UHGV virus genome: UHGV-1520160
Reading direction: 5' to 3' (one strand)
Origin: a virus
DNA: 39,030 nt
Shown here: positions 5,955 to 39,030 of the stretch, piece by piece
How positions within the stretch are numbered: the stretch's first letter is position 1
How the letters are laid out: the number at the start of each line of letters is the position of its first letter
The notes under the pieces: model-generated
Told to the model about the DNA's origin: nothing
Databases searched by the model: none
The model's input: the letters and a program-made list of their open reading frames with translations, nothing else
Translations under genes and position numbers: made by a program

Positions 5955-6027
5955 TGAGAAGGTTCGGGGAAGGCGACAGAGTTAGTAGCTGAGAGCCTTA
6001 TAACTCAGGCGTATTGACCAAATCTGA

Positions 6028-6549
6028 CTAAAAGAAGTGCATAAAAGCTTTGTACAGCCCTGTACCAATGGCGATAATCGCAGGGACACCTAAGAGAATC
6101 GCCAATTTAGCATCAGAGATTTTCTTGTCCACTGTGTCTGATGAGGGCTTTTTGTCTACAGACTCTTTGATACTAGACAGCCTCTCCAAAACTACAGCCA
6201 TATTTTTGTCCAGTGAATTCACTGTCGTATCAACTTTTGAAACTGTGTTTTTTATCTCGGCAACATCTTTCTTGATGTGGGCAACTTCAACCTCAAGAAT
6301 AGCCAATCTCTTTTCCATGTCGTCACCTCCATCTTCAGTTGACGTATGAATGATTTCAGTATCATCCATAGCAACTGATGTGACAATCCGTTTTTGTTTA
6401 TCCGAAGCGGCAAAACTACAAGCACCCATAAGGAAGGTTGCTTGGCTCGAAGCTACTGATGAAAACTCTAAGCCTACTGTAGCTCCGCTATGGTCTGAAT
6501 ATGCAATCAATAACTTCCCTTCACCAAGAGATGATTGAGCCGCATCCAT
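6028..6549 (-). CDS. tail-anchored coiled-coil membrane protein (173 aa); candidate effector of the rex-position cassette
   Basis: ORF track trimmed to the ATG at 6549 (AGGAA about 10 nt upstream). Heptad-like central region (MEKRLAILEVEVAHIKKDVAEIKNTVSKVDTTVNSLDKNMAVVLERLSSIKESV) and one C-terminal hydrophobic helix (LAILLGVPAIIAIGTGLYKAF). Region looks AT-richer than flanks by eye. Confidence 0.5.
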   Translation of the reverse strand: MDAAQSSLGEGKLLIAYSDHSGATVGLEFSSVASSQATFLMGACSFAASDKQKRIVTSVAMDDTEIIHTSTEDGGDDMEKRLAILEVEVAHIKKDVAEIKNTVSKVDTTVNSLDKNMAVVLERLSSIKESVDKKPSSDTVDKKISDAKLAILLGVPAIIAIGTGLYKAFMHFF

Positions 6550-6555
6550 CAATTA

Positions 6556-6837
6556 TTATTCCTCAAACATACTTTTTAAGGATTGATAAAAATCATAAGC
6601 CTTTTGTTTGCTTAAAGTCACAGACACAACTTTGGTTCGCTGCATGCCCTTGACGACTATATCCGCATTATCCGTACCGATGATCGGGCTGCTATTCAGG
6701 AACACAAAATTGTAAACTTCGTAACCGGCATTTTGTGTGCCGATTGTTACGACACCGTCAGCATTGGTCTCGATGAAATTTTTCGCTTCGATTACATCAT
6801 TAAGATGCATAAGTTCGACGGTTGTTTCTTTAGACAC
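6556..6837 (-). CDS. hypothetical soluble protein (93 aa), first gene of the rex-position cassette
   Basis: GTG start at 6837 with a GGAGG Shine-Dalgarno 5 nt upstream; 6-nt gap to the downstream gene; 64-nt AT-rich spacer after the repressor stop. Confidence 0.5.
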   Translation of the reverse strand: MSKETTVELMHLNDVIEAKNFIETNADGVVTIGTQNAGYEVYNFVFLNSSPIIGTDNADIVVKGMQRTKVVSVTLSKQKAYDFYQSLKSMFEE

Positions 6838-6901
6838 CGAATCCTCCAGAAGATATTAAATCTTGAAATATTTTTATTACATGGAATTAGATACTACTGG
6901 T

Positions 6902-7291
6902 TTAGGTTTGCTCACCTTGCGATCGAATCCGACCCTTCATGTACTTCTCGTACAGCTCATCTAACTCTTTCAGGCGAAGCGCAAAAATGCGGAGCATGTT
7001 CTGCTGCTCTTCTTCCGGTAACTGGCGGTAGAGCTCGAGCAAACGCTGTTCGTCCGGTTTGAGACCGTCTTTCTCCCCAACGTCTTCACCGAGTAGCCAG
7101 GCGACAGAAATACCAACAGCGTCGGCTATGGCCAGTGCCGATTTCTTACTAATCACGCCTTTTTTGAACCAGCCGTTTACGGCCTGAGGGGTGACTCCAG
7201 CTATTCTTGCCATGTCTGCTTTGGTAACGCCGCGATCAGTGATCTCAGTAAGGCGCTCCACCAGAACGAGGTTGGGTTCTTCTTTTCTCAT
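6902..7291 (-). CDS. prophage repressor, DicA/RacR-type HTH (XRE family), no S24 peptidase domain
   Basis: ORF 6902..7561 trimmed to the ATG at 7291 (MRKEEPNLVLVERLTEITDRGVTKADMARIAGVTPQAVNGWFKKG...). C-terminal LLELYRQLPEEEQ resembles the DicA C-terminal segment from memory. Divergent from a Cro-like gene. Confidence 0.7.
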   Translation of the reverse strand: MRKEEPNLVLVERLTEITDRGVTKADMARIAGVTPQAVNGWFKKGVISKKSALAIADAVGISVAWLLGEDVGEKDGLKPDEQRLLELYRQLPEEEQQNMLRIFALRLKELDELYEKYMKGRIRSQGEQT

Positions 7292-17916: not shown

Positions 17917-18381
17917 ATGACGCTTGGCGTTGAGATTGATACCTCTGCTGCACAAAAGGCAATCGACGAGCTGGACCAGCGCATTCGTGACACCGTCTCC
18001 TTCGAACTTATTCGCAATGGAGTGTCATTCATCAAGGACGCCGCTATCGCAAATGGTGCTATCCACGCAGCGGCAATCGAAACACCTCAGCCGGTGACCA
18101 ATATCTACAACATCAGCCTTGGTATCCAGCGTGATGAGCCAGCGCAGAACAAGGTAACCGTCAGTGCCGATAAGTTCAAAGTTAAACCTGGTGTTGATAC
18201 CAACATTGAAACGTTGATCGAAAACGCGCTGAAAAACGCTGCTGAATGTGCGGCGCTGGATGTCACAAAGCAAATGGCAGCAGACAAGAAAGCGATGGAT
18301 GAACTGGCTTCCTATGTCCGCACGGCCATCATGATGGAATGTTTCCCCGGTGGTGTTATCTGGCAGCAGTGCCGTCGATAG
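17917..18381 (+). CDS. hypothetical protein (154 aa) immediately upstream of cos
   Basis: ORF track; no clear Shine-Dalgarno; start uncertain. Confidence 0.35.
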   Translation: MTLGVEIDTSAAQKAIDELDQRIRDTVSFELIRNGVSFIKDAAIANGAIHAAAIETPQPVTNIYNISLGIQRDEPAQNKVTVSADKFKVKPGVDTNIETLIENALKNAAECAALDVTKQMAADKKAMDELASYVRTAIMMECFPGGVIWQQCRR

Positions 18382-18439
18382 TGTGCAATTGATAATTATT
18401 ATCGTTTGCGGGTCCTTTCCGGCGATCCGCCTTGTTACG

Positions 18440-18626
18440 GGGCGGCGTCCGCGCAGATTCTCGCTATTTATGAAAATTTTCTGGTTTATGCCATTTCCGT
18501 TCTTCTTCTTGTTTACTCATTGTTTTTGTTAAAAACGTCCTCTCTCCAGAAAGGAAATGCTGAGCAAGGAAAACGGAAGTTTACCGTTGATTGTTTCCTT
18601 TCTCTGTTTTTTGCCAGGAGTAAGCC
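18440..18626 (+). other. cos site: cosN cohesive-end sequence GGGCGGCGTCCG (18440..18451) and cosB-like region up to nu1
   Basis: Aligns by eye with recalled lambda cos (acg|GGGCGGCGACCT|cgcgggttttcgctatttatgaaaattttccggttta...); window has acg|GGGCGGCGTCCG|cgcagattctcgctatttatgaaaattttctggttta. Present as an uncut junction. Confidence 0.7.
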
Positions 18627-33902: not shown

Positions 33903-36900
33903 ATGGCTACTTCCACTCCGATTAGAGGCCGCAAGGGCGGCAGTTCCAGTTCCCGTACCCCTACAGAACAGCCAGACGATCTCCAGTCCGTAGCGAAGGC
34001 CAAGATTCTTGTTGCGCTGGGAGAAGGGGAATTTGCGGGGCAGTTAACGGCTAAAGATATCTATCTTGACGGCACGCCACTGGAGAATGCAGACGGATCG
34101 CAAAACTTCAGCGGCGTGGCATGGGAGTTCCGCCCGGGGACTCAGGCTCAAAAGTATATTCAGGGCATCCCCGGTACCGAGAATGAAATCAGCGTAGGTA
34201 CCGAAGTTTCAAGCGCTACGGCCTGGACGCATACCTTTACCAACACCCAGCTGTCAGCCATTCGTCTGCGCCTCAAATGGCCATCACTGTTTAAACAGGA
34301 GGACGACGGCGATCTGGTCGGCTATTCGATTAATTACGCTATCGATCTGCAGACAGATGGCGGTACCTGGCAGACCGTGCTTAATACCAGCGTCACCGGG
34401 AAAACCACGTCAGGCTACGAACGCAGCCACCGTATCGACTTACCGCAGGCGGGAAGCACCTGGACGGTACGTCTTCGTAAGCTCACCGCAGATGCGAACA
34501 GTGCGAAAATTGGCGACACGATGACGCTGCAGAGCTACACGGAGGTAATCGATGCCAAACTGCGCTATCCAAACACCGCGCTGCTGTACATTGAATTCGA
34601 TTCAAGCCAGTTTAACGGCTCCATCCCGCAAATTTCCTGTGAACCGCGCGGGCGCGTTATCCGCGTGCCGGATACTTACGATCCGGAAACCCGGACCTAT
34701 AGCGGTACCTGGACGGGGGCGTTTAAGTGGGCATGGACGGACAATCCGGCGTGGATTTTTTACGATCTGGTGGTGAGCGACCGTTTTGGACTTGGCGACC
34801 GCCTGACGGCGGCAAATATTGATAAATGGACGCTTTACCAGGTCGCACAATATTGCGATCAGCTGGTTCCTGATGGTAAAGGCGGTAGCGGCACCGAGCC
34901 TCGCTATACCTGTAACGTGTACGTGCAGGAGAGGAATGACGCCTATACCGTGTTACGTGATTTTGCGGCGATATTCCGTGGCATGACGTACTGGGGCGGC
35001 AATCAAATCGTTGCACTGGCAGATATGCCCCGCGATGTTGATTACAGCTACACCCGCGCTAACGTGGTTGACGGCCGCTTTACCTATTCTGGCAGCACCA
35101 CTAAAAACCGCTATACCACCGCGCTGGTTTCCTGGTCAGATCCGGGTAATGCCTACGCAGATGCGATGGAGCCGGTTTTTGAACAGGAGCTCGTCGCTCG
35201 CTTTGGCACAAACCAGCTCGAGATGACAGCCATTGGCTGTACCCGGCAGTCTGAGGCAAACCGTAAGGGGCGCTGGGGGATTCAGACCAATAACAAGGAT
35301 CGCATCGTATCGTTTGATGTTGGTCTGGACGGCAACATTCCACAGCCTGGTTATATTATCGCGGTTGCCGATGAGCTGTTATCCGGAAAGGTGATGGGAG
35401 GGCGTATCAGCGCGGTTAATGGTCGCGTTATCACGCTTGATCGTGATTCCGCTGCCGTTGCCGGAAGCCGTCTTATGGTTAACCTGCCGTCTGGCGCATC
35501 GCAGAGCAGGACGATTCAGAGCGTAAACGGCCGGGCTGTCACCGTGACCACGGCATACAGCGAAACACCGGCAGTCGAATCGGTATGGATTGTCGAATCC
35601 GACGAGCTTTATGCACAGCAATATCGTGTTATCAGCGTCTCTGATAATAACGACGGCACGTTTTCTATTACTGGTGCTTTTCACGATCCGGATAAGTATG
35701 CCCGTATCGATACCGGCGCCATCGTCGACCAGCGGCCAATAAGTGTAATTCCGCCCGGTAATCAGTCCCCGCCAGCTAATATCGCGATCAGTTCGTTTTC
35801 TGTCGTTCAGCAGAATATCAGCGTTGAGACCATGTGCGTCAGCTGGGACCAGGCGAAAAATGCTATCGCGTATGAGGCACAGTGGCGTCGCAATGACGGG
35901 AACTGGGTGAATGTGCCGCGCAGCTCCACCACGTCATTCGATGTTCCGGGGATTTATGCAGGACGCTACCTGGTTCGCGTGCGTGCCATCAATGCCGCCG
36001 AAATTTCATCTGGGTGGGGCTATTCAGAAGAGAAAACGTTGACGGGTAAAGTGGGAAACCCACCGAAGCCGGTTGGCTTCATCGCTTCTGAAAACGTGGT
36101 ATTCGGTATTGAGCTGAACTGGGGATTCCCGGCGAATACCGAAGACACGCTGAAGACGGAAATTCAGTACAGCCTGACCGGTACTGAAGACGATGCCATG
36201 CTGCTGGCCGATGTGCCTTACCCGCAGCGCAAATATCAGCAGATGGGCCTTAAGGCTGGGCAGATTTTCTGGTACCGCGCGCAGCTGGTGGACCGCAGCG
36301 GCAACGAATCAGGGTACACAGAATGGGTGCGAGGACAGGCCAGCATCGATGTTTCCGATATCACAGATGTGATTCTGGAGGAAATTAAAGACTCCGATAC
36401 GTTCAAAGACCTGATCGAGAACGCGGTGGACAGCAATGAAAAAATTGCTGGCATGGCTGACGACATCAAACAGGCCAACGATGAACTTGAGCTCCAGGCG
36501 CAGGAAATCGCAAAAAACGCGCAGGACATTGGGCAGGTTCAGACCAGTGTTAATGAGCTTTCGAGCACGGTCGGTGATGTATCTTCCTCTCTATCAGATC
36601 TTGAGCAGACCGTCGCAACGGCTGATACCGCGCTGGGCCAGCGAATCGACAGCATCAGCGTGTCTATGGACGGCATGACGGGCGGGGTTAAGAACTCAGC
36701 CATTGCCATTATCCAGAACGGGCTGGCGCAGGTGGCCACACGCAAAAGGCTTTCCGCGACGGTCGCCGGTAACAGTGCGCAGCTGGATCGTATTGATGAG
36801 GTAATCGTTAACGAGAAGGAGGCAACGGCGCGCTCTCTGCTGAGCCTGCAGACGGATGTCAACGGCAACAAGGCATCCATAAACAGCCTGAATCAGACGT

Positions 36901-37454
36901 TCTCCGACTATCAGCAGGCAACGGCCACGCAGATAAACGGCATTACGGCTACGGTGAACGGGCATACCTCAGCCATCACCACTAACGCTCAGGCTATAGC
37001 CAACGTTAATGGCGAACTCAGCGCGATGTACAACATCAAGGTTGGTGTCTCCAGCAACGGGCAGTATTACGCCGCGGGGATGGGTATCGGCGTGGAGAAT
37101 ACACCCTCCGGCATGCAGTCACAGGTAATCTTCCTGGCAGACCGTTTCGCCGTGACTACTATGGTCGGCGGGACTGTAACACTGCCGTTCGTTATCCAGA
37201 ATGGCCAGGCCATTATCAGGGATACAGTCATTGGCGACGGGACCATAAGCAATGCAAAAATTGGCAATTACATCCAGTCGAACAATTATGTTGCCGGCTC
37301 TGTTGGCTGGAAACTGGATAAGTCCGGGACGTTTGAGAACTACGGTTCGACAGCTGGGGAGGGAGCCATGAAGCAGACCAACCAGACAATCAGCGTCAAG
37401 GATGGCAACAACGTTCTGAGAGTGCAGGTTGGCCGATTAACGGGGGTGTTCTGA
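33903..37454 (+). CDS. J: tail tip / host specificity protein J; C-terminal region diverged from lambda
   Basis: 1183 aa; collinear with recalled lambda J over the N-terminal and central parts (DNPAWIFYDLVVSDRFGLG...QYCDQLVPDGKGG); distal part has an extended heptad-like region and lacks the recalled lambda C-terminal receptor-binding end. Confidence 0.9.
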   Translation: MATSTPIRGRKGGSSSSRTPTEQPDDLQSVAKAKILVALGEGEFAGQLTAKDIYLDGTPLENADGSQNFSGVAWEFRPGTQAQKYIQGIPGTENEISVGTEVSSATAWTHTFTNTQLSAIRLRLKWPSLFKQEDDGDLVGYSINYAIDLQTDGGTWQTVLNTSVTGKTTSGYERSHRIDLPQAGSTWTVRLRKLTADANSAKIGDTMTLQSYTEVIDAKLRYPNTALLYIEFDSSQFNGSIPQISCEPRGRVIRVPDTYDPETRTYSGTWTGAFKWAWTDNPAWIFYDLVVSDRFGLGDRLTAANIDKWTLYQVAQYCDQLVPDGKGGSGTEPRYTCNVYVQERNDAYTVLRDFAAIFRGMTYWGGNQIVALADMPRDVDYSYTRANVVDGRFTYSGSTTKNRYTTALVSWSDPGNAYADAMEPVFEQELVARFGTNQLEMTAIGCTRQSEANRKGRWGIQTNNKDRIVSFDVGLDGNIPQPGYIIAVADELLSGKVMGGRISAVNGRVITLDRDSAAVAGSRLMVNLPSGASQSRTIQSVNGRAVTVTTAYSETPAVESVWIVESDELYAQQYRVISVSDNNDGTFSITGAFHDPDKYARIDTGAIVDQRPISVIPPGNQSPPANIAISSFSVVQQNISVETMCVSWDQAKNAIAYEAQWRRNDGNWVNVPRSSTTSFDVPGIYAGRYLVRVRAINAAEISSGWGYSEEKTLTGKVGNPPKPVGFIASENVVFGIELNWGFPANTEDTLKTEIQYSLTGTEDDAMLLADVPYPQRKYQQMGLKAGQIFWYRAQLVDRSGNESGYTEWVRGQASIDVSDITDVILEEIKDSDTFKDLIENAVDSNEKIAGMADDIKQANDELELQAQEIAKNAQDIGQVQTSVNELSSTVGDVSSSLSDLEQTVATADTALGQRIDSISVSMDGMTGGVKNSAIAIIQNGLAQVATRKRLSATVAGNSAQLDRIDEVIVNEKEATARSLLSLQTDVNGNKASINSLNQTFSDYQQATATQINGITATVNGHTSAITTNAQAIANVNGELSAMYNIKVGVSSNGQYYAAGMGIGVENTPSGMQSQVIFLADRFAVTTMVGGTVTLPFVIQNGQAIIRDTVIGDGTISNAKIGNYIQSNNYVAGSVGWKLDKSGTFENYGSTAGEGAMKQTNQTISVKDGNNVLRVQVGRLTGVF

Positions 37455-37455
37455 T

Positions 37456-37758
37456 ATGGCTTATGGAATACAGACCTGGGATGCTTCGGGAAACCCCAAC
37501 AACTACGGAATCAAGCCCGTTTCCGTTGTTGGACGTATACAACTTGCCGCCGGACAAAACTCCGGCAGCTGGTCTTTCACTGTACCCTCAGGAATGAAGG
37601 TCGGTTTTGCGCTCTCACTTGATGAAGGAGGTAACAGCGTAGGGAGGAGCATTGTCGCGTCAGGGAACACAATAACCGTAACCGCAGCCTCTTCTGTGGG
37701 CCTGGGTAATTACCCGGCCTCTAAATGTGAGGTGGTCGTTTTCATGGAGAAAGCATAA
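37456..37758 (+). CDS. hypothetical protein (100 aa) sharing a domain with the next gene
   Basis: YGIQTWDASGNPNNYG motif recurs in 37758..38432 (GAMILMDNGNPF and WGLAIWDASGKLVL); tight coupling to the J stop. Confidence 0.45.
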   Translation: MAYGIQTWDASGNPNNYGIKPVSVVGRIQLAAGQNSGSWSFTVPSGMKVGFALSLDEGGNSVGRSIVASGNTITVTAASSVGLGNYPASKCEVVVFMEKA

Positions 37759-38432
37759 TGGCCGAATTTGGCGCGATGATATTAATGGATAACGGGAATC
37801 CCTTTGTAACGCCACAATCAACGCCTTTCTGTCTTTACGGGAAGTATACCTTCAATTCATCCGCGAATGGCAGTTCTCAGCAGGTTGCTCAAAATATCGC
37901 TTTAAACGCTGATTACCCAGTGATGGTTTTTATCAAAACCACCAATACAGCACAGCCCACTCCGGTTATGTCTTACAGGAACGGCGGTAATGTGTATGTT
38001 GCTGGTGTTAATCCCTACAACCAAAGTTTCACTTTAACGGCGTACGTTTTTGCCATATTCCCGCAGATATTACCGAAATGGGGTTTGGCAATATGGGATG
38101 CGAGCGGAAAGCTTGTGTTAACTAATGAGTCCCGTGTGCTATCAGACCTGCAGACGGTTGGCACGCCTGGTGCAAACGGCGGGATAAATATTGACCAGAC
38201 GCTGAGCGGGTCATGGGCCGTTGCACCTGCTCAGTTGGGTCAGACCATCATTGTGAATAATTCAACCCAGCCTCCGACTATCTACACGATAAATGCTTAT
38301 TCTTCATGCAGGTTTGACGGGGCCAATACGAGGATAAACGCAGGGGGGACCTCCACTGGGACAGGTTCACCTGTAGGGGGAACGAATACTGGCATTTCAT
38401 TAACCGCCATAAATACAGCGGCCTATGATTGA
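37758..38432 (+). CDS. hypothetical protein (224 aa) with two copies of the same domain plus Gly/Thr/Asn-rich C-terminus
   Basis: ORF track; internal repeat and paralogy with 37456..37758; C-terminus GGTSTGTGSPVGGTNTGISL. Confidence 0.45.
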   Translation: MAEFGAMILMDNGNPFVTPQSTPFCLYGKYTFNSSANGSSQQVAQNIALNADYPVMVFIKTTNTAQPTPVMSYRNGGNVYVAGVNPYNQSFTLTAYVFAIFPQILPKWGLAIWDASGKLVLTNESRVLSDLQTVGTPGANGGINIDQTLSGSWAVAPAQLGQTIIVNNSTQPPTIYTINAYSSCRFDGANTRINAGGTSTGTGSPVGGTNTGISLTAINTAAYD

Positions 38433-38543
38433 TTGATCGTTTTTAGCGATCAATAACATAATATTGATCTATCCAATCAATTATACCCACCAGAATTGTA
38501 TTGGTATCGTCTAAGATACTGAATTCCTCTGGATACTATCAAA

Positions 38544-38777
38544 ATGAGAAAACTGATTATCTGCATGGCAGGCGCTGTCATGCTTACAGGATGCGCTGGC
38601 GTAATTGAGAAACAGGAACCAGTTTGCAGCGGCACTGCAATCGTTGGCGGTCAGGAAACTACGGTTCAGATTTACGGTGTGCGTAAACAAAACAACCAGA
38701 CGCAGTACCGGGCTGGATATCCTTTCAGCTGGCGCTGGGTAAGTGCGAATACATTTACCGAAACAACCTGCAAATAA
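38544..38777 (+). CDS. small lipoprotein (77 aa); possibly Cor-like superinfection-exclusion protein
   Basis: Signal peptide with lipobox MRKLIICMAGAVMLTGC; AT-rich upstream spacer and terminator downstream; location after tail genes is where cor-type genes sit. Family call is tentative. Confidence 0.45.
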   Translation: MRKLIICMAGAVMLTGCAGVIEKQEPVCSGTAIVGGQETTVQIYGVRKQNNQTQYRAGYPFSWRWVSANTFTETTCK

Positions 38778-38797
38778 CCCACTACGCTTAAACATAA

Positions 38798-38822
38798 ACC
38801 TCGCTCCGGCGGGGTTTTTTTA
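38798..38822 (+). terminator. rho-independent terminator
   Basis: cctcgc-tccg-gcgggg hairpin (one mismatch) followed by ttttttt. Confidence 0.45.
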
Positions 38823-38837: not shown

Positions 38838-39030
38838 ATGCTTTATAACACCGGCACCATCGCCATTAATGGAAATACCGCCACCGGGACGGGTACAAAC
38901 TGGACGGCACCGGCCAGCCAGGTCCGCGCTGGCCAGACGATTATCGTGATGTCTAACCCGGTGCAGCTGTTTCATATTTCATCCGTGAACAGCGCCACGT
39001 CAATGACGGTTACGCCTGCCGCTTCCCCGG
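38838..39030 (+). CDS. hypothetical protein, N-terminal fragment (possible tail fibre); runs off window end
   Basis: ATG at 38838 with GGAG RBS; open to the window end; MLYNTGTIAINGNTATGTGTNWTAPASQ... is Thr/Gly/Asn-rich like fibre N-termini. Confidence 0.3.
   Translation, partial: MLYNTGTIAINGNTATGTGTNWTAPASQVRAGQTIIVMSNPVQLFHISSVNSATSMTVTPAASP

What the first reader, a model, noticed from the sequence alone, without database searches (positions are those of the whole stretch)
36340..38432. Diverged distal end of tail-tip protein J followed by two paralogous repeat-domain proteins
J is collinear with lambda J over most of its length, but the distal third (from about 36340) carries a long heptad-like region and ends without the C-terminal sequence I recall for the lambda LamB-binding domain. 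Directly coupled downstream are a 100-aa and a 224-aa protein sharing a repeated motif (G-I/L-x-x-W/M-D-A/N-S/G-G-N/K; two copies in the larger protein), with no signal peptides. These may be separate receptor-binding or tip-accessory proteins replacing a fused receptor-binding domain, in which case they would define host range.
Basis: partly seen in the sequence, partly recalled or inferred. Interest (0 to 1): 0.55.

Follow-up and report, generated by a model that had tools for sequence, protein, structure and literature searches.

The report
Split receptor-binding tip of HK022/phi80-type tail
The tail-tip protein of this lambda-like prophage lacks lambda's built-in receptor-binding end, and that role is very probably taken by two small proteins encoded just downstream; this arrangement is already described for phages HK022, phi80, N15 and T1 and for Pseudomonas F-type pyocins, so the finding is correct but not new.

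Summary
J (33903..37454) is collinear with lambda J to about aa 861. It then carries a ~225-aa segmented coiled coil (aa ~815-1040) and a short beta tip, with no lambda-type receptor-binding domain. Two translationally coupled genes follow, encoding 100 aa and 224 aa. Neither product has a signal peptide or a membrane segment.

The last ~72 aa of J, both genes and cor are inherited as one mosaic block. The coiled coil matches the fold-switching shaft of F-pyocin fibres.

My own untested addition: the two proteins supply three homologous units (1+2), each a conserved docking segment plus a beta-sandwich. These may cap the J trimer asymmetrically.

Novelty: already known. Interest: low to moderate.

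The parts
33903..37454 (+). J-like central tail fibre / tip attachment protein, 1183 aa
   Evidence: Pfam FNIII-A_GpJ (1.6e-50), Phage-tail_3 and Phage_Tail_Tip PF09327 (2.1e-48). phrog_31 'central tail fiber J'. PDB sequence hits to the F2-pyocin fibre 25vf_A (1049 bits, aa 6-1147), T1 gp33 9l9p_S and lambda J 8iyk_J.
36345..37022 (+). Segmented coiled-coil shaft of J (aa ~815-1040), absent from lambda J; candidate fold-switching region
   Evidence: The local heptad score is above the control 99th percentile, with register shifts. The strand pattern SxSxxMxxLxS, forward or reverse, occurs 18 times against 8.9+/-2.8 in shuffles. The region aligns with the F2-pyocin fibre at 908-1101. [quoted passage not shown]
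36380..37000 (+). Mosaic segment of HK022 type (approximate limits)
   Evidence: Sliding identity is 87-96% to HK022 and 5-65% to mEp237, HK225 and phi80.
36972..37382 (+). Beta-prism / beta-helix tip domain of J (PF09327, aa 1024-1160)
   Evidence: Pfam match. Aligns to lambda J 858-930, T1 gp33 948-1171 and F2-pyocin 1001-1189.
37236..37451 (+). Last 72 aa of J (aa 1112-1183), inherited together with the two downstream genes and cor
   Evidence: The 99.1% identity block with HK225 starts at 37236. The 98.5% block with mEp237 starts at 36984. This parallels 'last 60 residues of PyoF10 + PyoF11 + PyoF12'.
37456..37758 (+). 100-aa tip protein (one unit); counterpart of HK022 gp25, phi80/N15 gp22 and PyoF11
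   Evidence: phrog_557 at 3.1e-36, with a weak phrog_2427 hit. 100% identical to mEp237. AF2 gives one beta-sandwich at aa 21-99 with aa 1-20 at low confidence. Foldseek finds ~100-aa proteins of Pseudomonas phages.
37456..37515 (+). Conserved N-terminal motif segment of the 100-aa protein (MAYGIQTWDASGNPNNYGIK)
   Evidence: Majority-residue fraction is 0.88 over aa 1-26. Block-mean pLDDT is 46-52 for aa 1-20, with only aa 1-4 below 50.
37758..38432 (+). 224-aa tip protein (two units), probable FhuA-binding protein; counterpart of HK022 gp26, phi80/N15 gp23 and PyoF12
37758..37823 (+). First motif segment of the 224-aa protein (aa 1-22)
   Evidence: Conservation is 0.82 over aa 1-27, but pLDDT is below 50.
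38070..38147 (+). Second motif segment / inter-domain linker (aa 105-130, PKWGLAIWDASGKLVLTNESRVLSDL)
   Evidence: This lies in the most conserved internal stretch (0.85 over aa 96-130; only the last 9 residues score higher). pLDDT is below 50 at aa 107-125. It matches the start of the Burkholderia small protein.
38238..38402 (+). Hypervariable part of the second domain (aa 161-215), candidate receptor-facing surface
   Evidence: Conservation is 0.57. HK022 gp26 has a 12-residue deletion and substitutions here. DNA identity to HK022 drops to 45-50%.
38544..38777 (+). cor, superinfection-exclusion lipoprotein directed against FhuA-dependent phages
   Evidence: phrog_1119 at 7.1e-37. Signal peptide with lipobox LTGC. 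DNA is 100% identical to phi80 cor. A promoter-like site lies at 38433-38462.
38796..38817 (+). Intrinsic terminator after cor; the side tail fibre gene starts at 38839
   Evidence: A stem of 9 pairs followed by a T run. Terminators are annotated at the same place in phi80, HK225 and mEp237.

Best explanation
The region is the distal host-recognition module of an HK022/phi80/N15-type lambdoid prophage.

J forms the trimeric tip and central fibre. It has no lambda-type fused receptor-binding domain. Instead it ends in a long segmented coiled-coil shaft (aa ~815-1040) and a short beta-prism/beta-helix tip.

Two translationally coupled products follow, of 100 aa and 224 aa. They are virion proteins that bind non-covalently to the end of the J trimer and form the receptor-binding cap. 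The 224-aa protein is the faster-evolving of the two and is the likely contact with the outer-membrane transporter FhuA.

Together the two proteins supply three homologous units (1+2). Each unit is a conserved ~20-aa N-terminal segment followed by an ~80-aa beta-sandwich. I infer that each segment docks on one chain of the J trimer, giving an asymmetric, pseudo-threefold cap.

[quoted passage not shown] This would open the tip.

cor, just downstream, blocks FhuA in lysogens.

Shown here: the anatomy, the homologies, the co-inheritance and the fold similarity. Inferred: virion location, FhuA contact, stoichiometry and the fold switch in this phage.
For: - Lambda receptor-binding domain absent and coiled coil inserted.
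- Gene coupling. No signal peptide or membrane segment.
- Same gene order in HK022, phi80, HK225 and mEp237: J, 100 aa, 212-224 aa, cor, terminator, side fibre.
- The 224-aa protein is 93% identical to that of the FhuA-dependent phage phi80 and 59% to that of the FhuA-dependent JLBYU37 (PMC10373560).
- Strict co-occurrence and adjacency of the two genes: 346 and 359 phage records with matching taxon counts.
- The last ~72 aa of J, both genes and cor form one mosaic block.
- The 224-aa family is more variable than the 100-aa family: 33% against 53% identity to Klebsiella phages.
- A PHROG network links the pair to PyoF11 and PyoF12. Those proteins are essential and occur in particles.
- Three-unit idea. 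Motif segments are the best-conserved parts yet have low pLDDT in isolation. The same 1+2 motif pattern occurs in a Burkholderia phage and in an F2-type pyocin. Units are related (z up to 15.6).
[quoted passage not shown] Those are the places where its three motif-like segments lie.
Against: - No experiment exists for this phage or for the FhuA-type pair in any coliphage. The T1 cryo-EM study did not resolve the fibre end.
- The link to PyoF11 and PyoF12 is transitive only. A profile search with the 100-aa family over 1.8 billion proteins found only ~100-aa enterobacterial relatives and not the 224-aa family.
- The three units of the Oekolampad and Rtp proteins are not significantly similar to each other or to the units here in sequence (z mostly below 3).
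- Published models disagree on stoichiometry: a trimer of the small protein, a trimer plus a monomer, or unspecified.
- The fold switch is proven only for the F7 pyocin. The global heptad periodicity test here was not significant.
Confidence: 0.75

Rival explanations
1. The two proteins are assembly chaperones for the J tip or the side fibres. They help the beta-prism tip fold and then leave, and the end of J itself binds FhuA.
For: Saha et al. first left open 'binding to it or acting as chaperones'. Small genes downstream of fibre genes are often chaperones. The 2026 screen finds receptor-associated k-mers in the GpJ C-terminal tip as well. Neither protein has been resolved in any cryo-EM map.
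Against: PyoF11 and PyoF12 were detected in pyocin particles by mass spectrometry, and tomography shows density at the fibre end. Proteomics also supports PA0642 on the tip. The 224-aa model resembles a protein that itself binds its receptor in a solved complex. The J tip after aa 1112 is short and well conserved with T1, whereas the 224-aa protein is the variable partner.
Confidence: 0.1
2. Only the 224-aa protein sits on the tip, as a monomer like T5 pb5. The 100-aa protein forms a separate homotrimeric collar or adaptor, so there is no 1+2 pseudo-trimer.
For: AlphaFold-Multimer models in Matusiak et al. favour the large 'hand-like' protein on the tip and model the small one as a trimer. Another preprint models a trimeric PA0642. 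The 100-aa family is much more conserved than the 224-aa family, as expected of an adaptor.
Against: All three units carry the same N-terminal motif, and in the Burkholderia phage they are demonstrably homologous. The single-chain LptD-type proteins show three motif-like segments at ~100-aa spacing, coinciding with three disordered tail-proximal segments. That is hard to explain if only one or two units face the fibre.
Confidence: 0.12
3. The genes are lysogenic-conversion or membrane genes, as database names suggest ('outer membrane protein', 'membrane associated protein', moron).
For: PHROG and RefSeq names. Position next to the true moron cor.
Against: There is no signal peptide, lipobox or hydrophobic segment. 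The genes are translationally coupled to the late gene J, and the promoter-like site and AT-rich spacer come only after them. They are conserved in strictly lytic T1-like and Dhillonvirus phages. Computed membrane affinity of homologues is low.
Confidence: 0.03

Closest known systems
HK022 gp24-gp25-gp26-cor, phi80 gp21-gp22-gp23-cor, N15 gp21-gp22-gp23-cor; also mEp237 and HK225
   Same: Gene order, sizes and coupling are identical. The tip block from 36984 is 98.5% identical in DNA to mEp237, and from 37236 it is 99.1% identical to HK225. The 224-aa protein is 93% identical to phi80 gp23, and the 100-aa protein is 78% identical to N15 gp22.
   Different: This copy is a new mosaic. Its coiled-coil segment is of HK022 type, while its tip, both downstream genes and cor are of mEp237/HK225 type. 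HK022 gp26 is 12 aa shorter in the variable part of domain 2.
F-type pyocin Specificity Module 1: C-terminus of PyoF10 plus PyoF11 and PyoF12 (Saha et al.; He et al. 2026; Gu et al. 2026)
   Same: The J-like fibre matches over its full length (1049 bits), including the coiled-coil shaft. A ~100-aa one-domain protein is followed by a ~245-aa two-domain protein with overlapping stop and start codons, and the motif pattern is again 1+2. The fibre end co-varies with the two genes.
   Different: The small and large proteins are related to their pyocin counterparts only through intermediate PHROG families. The pyocin target is thought to be LPS or another surface structure, not FhuA. Pyocin side fibres attach to the shaft, which is not known for this phage. 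The pyocin locus has no cor.
Receptor-binding loci downstream of gpJ in Drexlerviridae, Dhillonvirus and Queuovirinae (BASEL, Maffei 2021); solved Oekolampad protein bound to LptDE (9RPT)
   Different: The LptD-type locus is a single 311-321-aa gene on the opposite strand, not two co-directional coupled genes. There is no significant sequence similarity. The receptor differs.
Lambda J with its fused C-terminal LamB-binding domain
   Same: The hub, FNIII domains and the start of the straight fibre are collinear (32% identity over aa 13-861). The short beta-prism segment is shared: J 1040-1110 with lambda 860-930.
   Different: There is no counterpart of lambda J 931-1132. About 180 extra coiled-coil residues are present. 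Receptor binding is delegated to separate proteins.
T5 pb5 on the pb4 straight fibre, with the Llp lipoprotein
   Same: It works alike: a separate, non-covalently attached receptor-binding protein for FhuA at the end of a trimeric fibre, paired with an exclusion lipoprotein (PMC9586334, cited).
   Different: There is no sequence or fold relationship in my searches. pb5 is one large protein encoded elsewhere in the genome.

Membership tests
PyoF11/PyoF12-type pair (Specificity Module 1 of F-type pyocins and related siphophages) | Genes lie immediately 3' of the central fibre gene, small first and then large | tested here: met
   37456..37758 and 37758..38432 follow J directly and are coupled. 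The order is the same in L003 and L005.
PyoF11/PyoF12-type pair (Specificity Module 1 of F-type pyocins and related siphophages) | Sequence homology to PyoF11 and PyoF12 | tested here: inconclusive
   Links are transitive only. phrog_557 connects to phrog_2427 and then to PyoF11 (E 2.2e-3, 3.2e-4, 1.7e-4). phrog_425 connects to phrog_4062 and then to PyoF12 (E 2.5e-3, 1e-10). The direct profile search found no Pseudomonas member. Saha et al. list T1 and N15 homologues in their alignments.
PyoF11/PyoF12-type pair (Specificity Module 1 of F-type pyocins and related siphophages) | One beta-sandwich domain in the small protein and two in the large | tested here: met
   AF2 models. Gu et al. describe PyoF11 and PyoF12 in the same way.
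PyoF11/PyoF12-type pair (Specificity Module 1 of F-type pyocins and related siphophages) | Co-variation with the last ~60 residues of the central fibre | tested here: met
   Identity blocks with HK225 and mEp237 start inside J at aa 1112 and aa 1028 and run through both genes.
PyoF11/PyoF12-type pair (Specificity Module 1 of F-type pyocins and related siphophages) | Required for activity and present in the particle | not testable with these tools
   Known for pyocins only.
FhuA-type receptor-binding locus downstream of gpJ (BASEL and the 2026 receptor screen) | More than 30% identity over the full length to the locus protein of phages with proven FhuA dependence | tested here: met
   93% to phi80, 59% to JLBYU37, and 60% to Teewinot gp25 (P0040). 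FhuA dependence of these phages comes from PMC10373560.
FhuA-type receptor-binding locus downstream of gpJ (BASEL and the 2026 receptor screen) | Adjacent cognate exclusion gene (cor) | tested here: met
   38544..38777 matches phrog_1119 at 7.1e-37 and has a lipobox.
FhuA-type receptor-binding locus downstream of gpJ (BASEL and the 2026 receptor screen) | The phage needs FhuA for adsorption | not testable with these tools
   Inferred from homology only.
Lambda-type J with fused receptor-binding domain | C-terminal domain homologous to lambda J ~931-1132 | tested here: not met
   No alignment beyond lambda residue 930.
Fold-switching central fibre proteins (He et al. 2026) | Homology of the last ~400 residues to an F-pyocin central fibre | tested here: met
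   F2-pyocin fibre 25vf_A, E 8.5e-35, J aa ~857-1147.
Fold-switching central fibre proteins (He et al. 2026) | High coiled-coil propensity plus enrichment of the strand pattern SxSxxMxxLxS | tested here: met
   Local heptad score. Eighteen pattern hits against 8.9+/-2.8 in shuffles, p ~0.001. Both are crude in-house measures, not the CoCoNat and structure-based alignment used in the paper.
Fold-switching central fibre proteins (He et al. 2026) | Two conformations (coiled coil and beta-prism) observed or predicted | not tested
It would need trimer prediction with deep and shallow alignments, or cryo-EM.

The most novel reading that the evidence does not exclude
All receptor-binding modules encoded next to gpJ-like genes may be versions of one pseudo-threefold cap made of three 'docking segment + beta-sandwich' units. 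The FhuA type here and the pyocin PyoF11/PyoF12 pair would be 1+2 units on two chains. The LptD type would be three units on one chain. Each conserved N-terminal segment would dock on one chain of the fibre trimer, while the sandwiches have diverged. A threefold fibre would thus present a single asymmetric face to a monomeric beta-barrel receptor. This would unify protein families now described as unrelated and would settle the conflicting stoichiometries in the current models.
Probability: 0.4. Interest if true: 0.55.

Novelty: already known. Interest (0 to 1): 0.28.

Why it matters
These genes very probably decide which outer-membrane protein the phage uses, here most likely FhuA. They are still labelled 'hypothetical', 'outer membrane protein' or 'membrane associated protein' in databases. 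Correct labelling allows receptor prediction from sequence and guides host-range engineering.

The exchange unit defined here runs from J aa ~1112 through cor. It is the natural cassette for such swaps.

The coiled-coil shaft may be a stored-energy fold switch, as in F-pyocins. That would bear on how non-contractile tails open.

None of this is new in principle. The open points are the stoichiometry of the cap and which subunit touches the receptor.

Tried and rejected
- Direct tests of paralogy between the two proteins gave only the 12-13-residue motif. I tried BLASTP, hhalign of family profiles and hhalign of split domains in local and global modes.
- A profile search with the 100-aa family against 1.8 billion representatives found 72 proteins. 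The named ones I looked up are enterobacterial. None belonged to the 224-aa family or to Pseudomonas.
- PDB sequence searches with both family profiles found nothing useful.
- A global Fourier test for 3.5-residue periodicity over the whole shaft was not significant, so I replaced it with a local register-aware score.
- hhalign of the 224-aa family against Rtp44 gave nothing.
- Smith-Waterman z-scores between Oekolampad or Rtp units and the units here were mostly below 3. The extension to LptD-type proteins therefore rests on fold similarity, motif spacing and the disordered segments, not on sequence statistics.
- I tried to fetch a BtuB-type locus by guessing BASEL accession numbers. I reached unrelated phages and gave up.
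- Two database proteins that looked like C-terminal swaps of the 224-aa protein (P0053, P0049) turned out to have unrelated N-termini. They are probably chimeric or miscalled.
- Rfam and tRNA scans of the window found nothing.
- The antisense ORFs inside the coiled-coil region (36236..36529 and 36539..36880, minus strand) were not searched for homologues. I regard them as chance ORFs.

Full report
**What is there**

The window is a lambdoid prophage or phage in prophage order. Early genes (RecE/RecT, O/P, Q) come first, followed by head and tail genes, and the closest overall relative is mEp237.

The finding covers the end of the tail operon:
- J at 33903..37454 (1183 aa).
- A 100-aa ORF at 37456..37758.
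- A 224-aa ORF at 37758..38432.
- An AT-rich spacer of 111 bp with a promoter-like site.
- cor at 38544..38777.
- A strong terminator at 38796..38817.
- The start of the side tail fibre gene at 38839.

The J stop and the next ATG are separated by one base. The second and third ORFs overlap as TAATG.

**Check of the observation**

BLASTP against lambda J (fetched) gives 32% identity over aa 13-861. A second match joins J 1040-1110 to lambda 860-930, and nothing matches lambda 931-1132. PDB sequence searches say the same.

The extra ~180-225 residues (aa ~815-1040) contain no proline and draw spurious Pfam hits to coiled-coil families. They score above the 99th percentile of the rest of J in a local heptad test, with several register shifts. 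A single global periodicity test fails, as expected for a coiled coil with stutters.

Neither protein has a signal peptide or a hydrophobic segment, whereas Cor has a lipobox.

**Are the two proteins paralogous?**

Direct comparison supports only the 12-13-residue motif. A profile of the 100-aa family does not retrieve the 224-aa family from 1.8 billion proteins.

An intermediate sequence settles most of the question. Burkholderia phage vB_SBP9 has the same layout. Its J is followed by an unannotated 102-aa ORF with a TTG start and then by a 238-aa ORF.
- The second half of the 224-aa protein matches that small protein (tblastn E 2e-3 against the whole phage collection; Smith-Waterman z 15.6).
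- The Burkholderia small protein matches both halves of its own large partner (z 6.2 and 7.6).
- It also matches phrog_557, the family of the 100-aa protein here (E 3.2e-4 over the full length).

AF2 models agree. The 100-aa protein is one beta-sandwich (aa 21-99). The 224-aa protein is two (aa 24-100 and 131-219). The two models share several of the same weak fold neighbours. The units are therefore homologous, although the first unit of the large protein has diverged most.

**What the module is**

The same order, J then 100 aa then 212-224 aa then cor then terminator then side fibre, is annotated in HK022, phi80, HK225 and mEp237. The phi80 record cross-references N15 gp21-gp23.

The 224-aa protein is 99.6% identical to that of HK225 and 93% to phi80 gp23. 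The 100-aa protein is identical to that of mEp237.

Both genes occur in about 350 phage records with matching taxon counts, and they were adjacent in the records I could check. Those records include lytic T1-like, Dhillonvirus and Klebsiella phages.

In complete E. coli genomes the block is uncommon, present in 85 of 5426.

The PDB search shows that J matches the F2-pyocin central fibre over its whole length (1049 bits). In an F2-type pyocin locus that I fetched (L003), the fibre gene is followed by a 97-aa ORF and a 245-aa ORF with overlapping stop and start codons. A network of PHROG matches links these to the two proteins here.

**What is known about these proteins**

- Saha et al. showed that in-frame deletions of pyoF11 and pyoF12 abolish killing. 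They found homologues in T1 and N15, noted that HK022 has the phage tail closest to F-pyocins, and defined Specificity Module 1 as the last 60 residues of the fibre plus PyoF11 and PyoF12.
- He et al. report both proteins in particles by mass spectrometry, density at the fibre end in tomograms, and AlphaFold3 models that place them there.
- Gu et al. note one Ig-like domain in PyoF11 and two in PyoF12.
- For coliphages, BASEL matched alleles of the locus downstream of gpJ to receptor type.
- A 2026 screen tied one family at this locus to FhuA.
- Matusiak et al. modelled the same trio in an FhuA-dependent Dhillonvirus and rejected the membrane annotation.

Second, the region is a mosaic.
- The coiled-coil segment (about 36380-37000) is of HK022 type and cannot be aligned to mEp237, HK225 or phi80.
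- From 36984 onward the sequence is 98.5% identical to mEp237.
- From 37236 (J aa 1112) to 38827 it is 99.1% identical to HK225.

The last ~72 residues of J, both genes and cor thus travel together, as expected of parts that must fit each other.

Third, the 224-aa family is much more variable than the 100-aa family (33% against 53% identity to Klebsiella phages). Its variation is concentrated in domain 1 and in aa 161-215. This points to the large protein as the receptor-facing part.

**Likely mechanism**

I propose that the two proteins cap the J trimer and bind FhuA, and that cor then protects lysogens.

One step is my own inference. The cap contains three units, one from the small protein and two from the large. 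Each unit begins with a conserved segment of the form aromatic-G-h-x-h-[WYF]-[DN]-x-x-G followed by a second short strand. The reasons for this inference are:
- These segments are the best-conserved parts of both proteins, yet they are the low-confidence parts of the monomer models.
- The same 1+2 pattern recurs in the Burkholderia phage and in the pyocin.
- The single-chain LptD-type proteins Rtp44 (311 aa) and Oekolampad bas18_0025 (321 aa) show three such starts, near residues 1, 115 and 210.

Three docking segments for three J chains would explain all of these points. It would also give an asymmetric face for a monomeric receptor.

The sequence statistics for the LptD-type units are weak, and published models disagree on stoichiometry. 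I rate this step at about even odds.

**The coiled coil**

Its pyocin homologue is a 163-residue shaft that converts from a trimeric coiled coil to a beta-prism on cell contact. That conversion opens the tip, and mutants that block it still assemble but do not kill.

He et al. predict the same switch for 21 of 24 related phage fibres and give the strand pattern SxSxxMxxLxS. In this J the pattern, forward or reversed, occurs 18 times in aa 815-1040, against 8.9+/-2.8 in shuffles. The segment aligns with the pyocin shaft. A fold switch here is plausible but untested.

**Verdict**

- Observation: confirmed.
- Interpretation: supported.
- Novelty: already known, because this is a near-identical copy of a module present in mEp237, HK225 and phi80, whose role has been proposed and partly tested in homologues.
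- Remaining open questions: cap stoichiometry, which subunit contacts FhuA, and whether the shaft switches fold in a phage.

Noticed in passing
L005 5992..6300 (Burkholderia phage vB_SBP9, PQ789808.1 record 18287..18595): An unannotated 102-aa ORF with a TTG start lies directly after the J-like gene. It is a clear member of phrog_2427 (E 7.6e-31) and is the small partner of the annotated 238-aa 'hypothetical protein'. The record misses it.
   Followed up: yes
window 37456..38432 and database records for HK022, phi80, N15 and mEp phages: RefSeq and PHROG names ('outer membrane protein', 'membrane associated protein', 'moron') for these two families have no support. The proteins lack a signal peptide, lipobox and hydrophobic segment, and the genes are coupled to a late structural gene.
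   Followed up: yes
L010 5655..6620 (Oekolampad bas18_0025) and L009 6753..7688 (Rtp44), minus strand: Both LptD-type receptor-binding proteins show three G-h-x-h motif starts about 100 residues apart. The three segments left unresolved in the published cryo-EM structure (1-25, 113-142, 206-234) coincide with them.
   Followed up: partly
window 36380..37000: The coiled-coil part of J is a separate mosaic piece of HK022 type, set in a gene that is otherwise of mEp237/HK225 type. J length varies among close relatives (1062 to 1192 aa), so the shaft seems to be exchanged and resized independently of the tip.
   Followed up: partly
window 38431..38451: A perfect hairpin, TTGATCG-TTTTTAG-CGATCAA, begins at the last base of the stop codon of the 224-aa ORF. 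It overlaps a promoter-like site upstream of cor. Its function is unknown.
   Followed up: no
phage collection hits, e.g. MG065679.1 'Campylobacter phage A13a': Eight records labelled Campylobacter phage carry both proteins. The one record listed (A13a) shows ~69% identity to the E. coli 100-aa protein. They look like T1-like coliphages that were misattributed or were contaminants.
   Followed up: no
proteins P0097, P0061, P0053 and P0049: Database proteins join part of the 224-aa protein to unrelated sequence (TipJ FNIII-A domain, Phage_min_tail, or unrelated N-termini). They are probably frameshifted, chimeric or miscalled ORFs in prophage remnants.
   Followed up: partly
window 6001..7000: G+C falls to 0.41 in the early region, against ~0.52 elsewhere. 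This may be a recently acquired gene in the early/immunity region.
   Followed up: no
literature: Three recent papers model the fibre-end cap with different stoichiometries: a trimer of the small protein plus a monomer of the large, an unspecified CFP:F11:F12 complex, and a trimeric PA0642. The question is open.
   Followed up: partly
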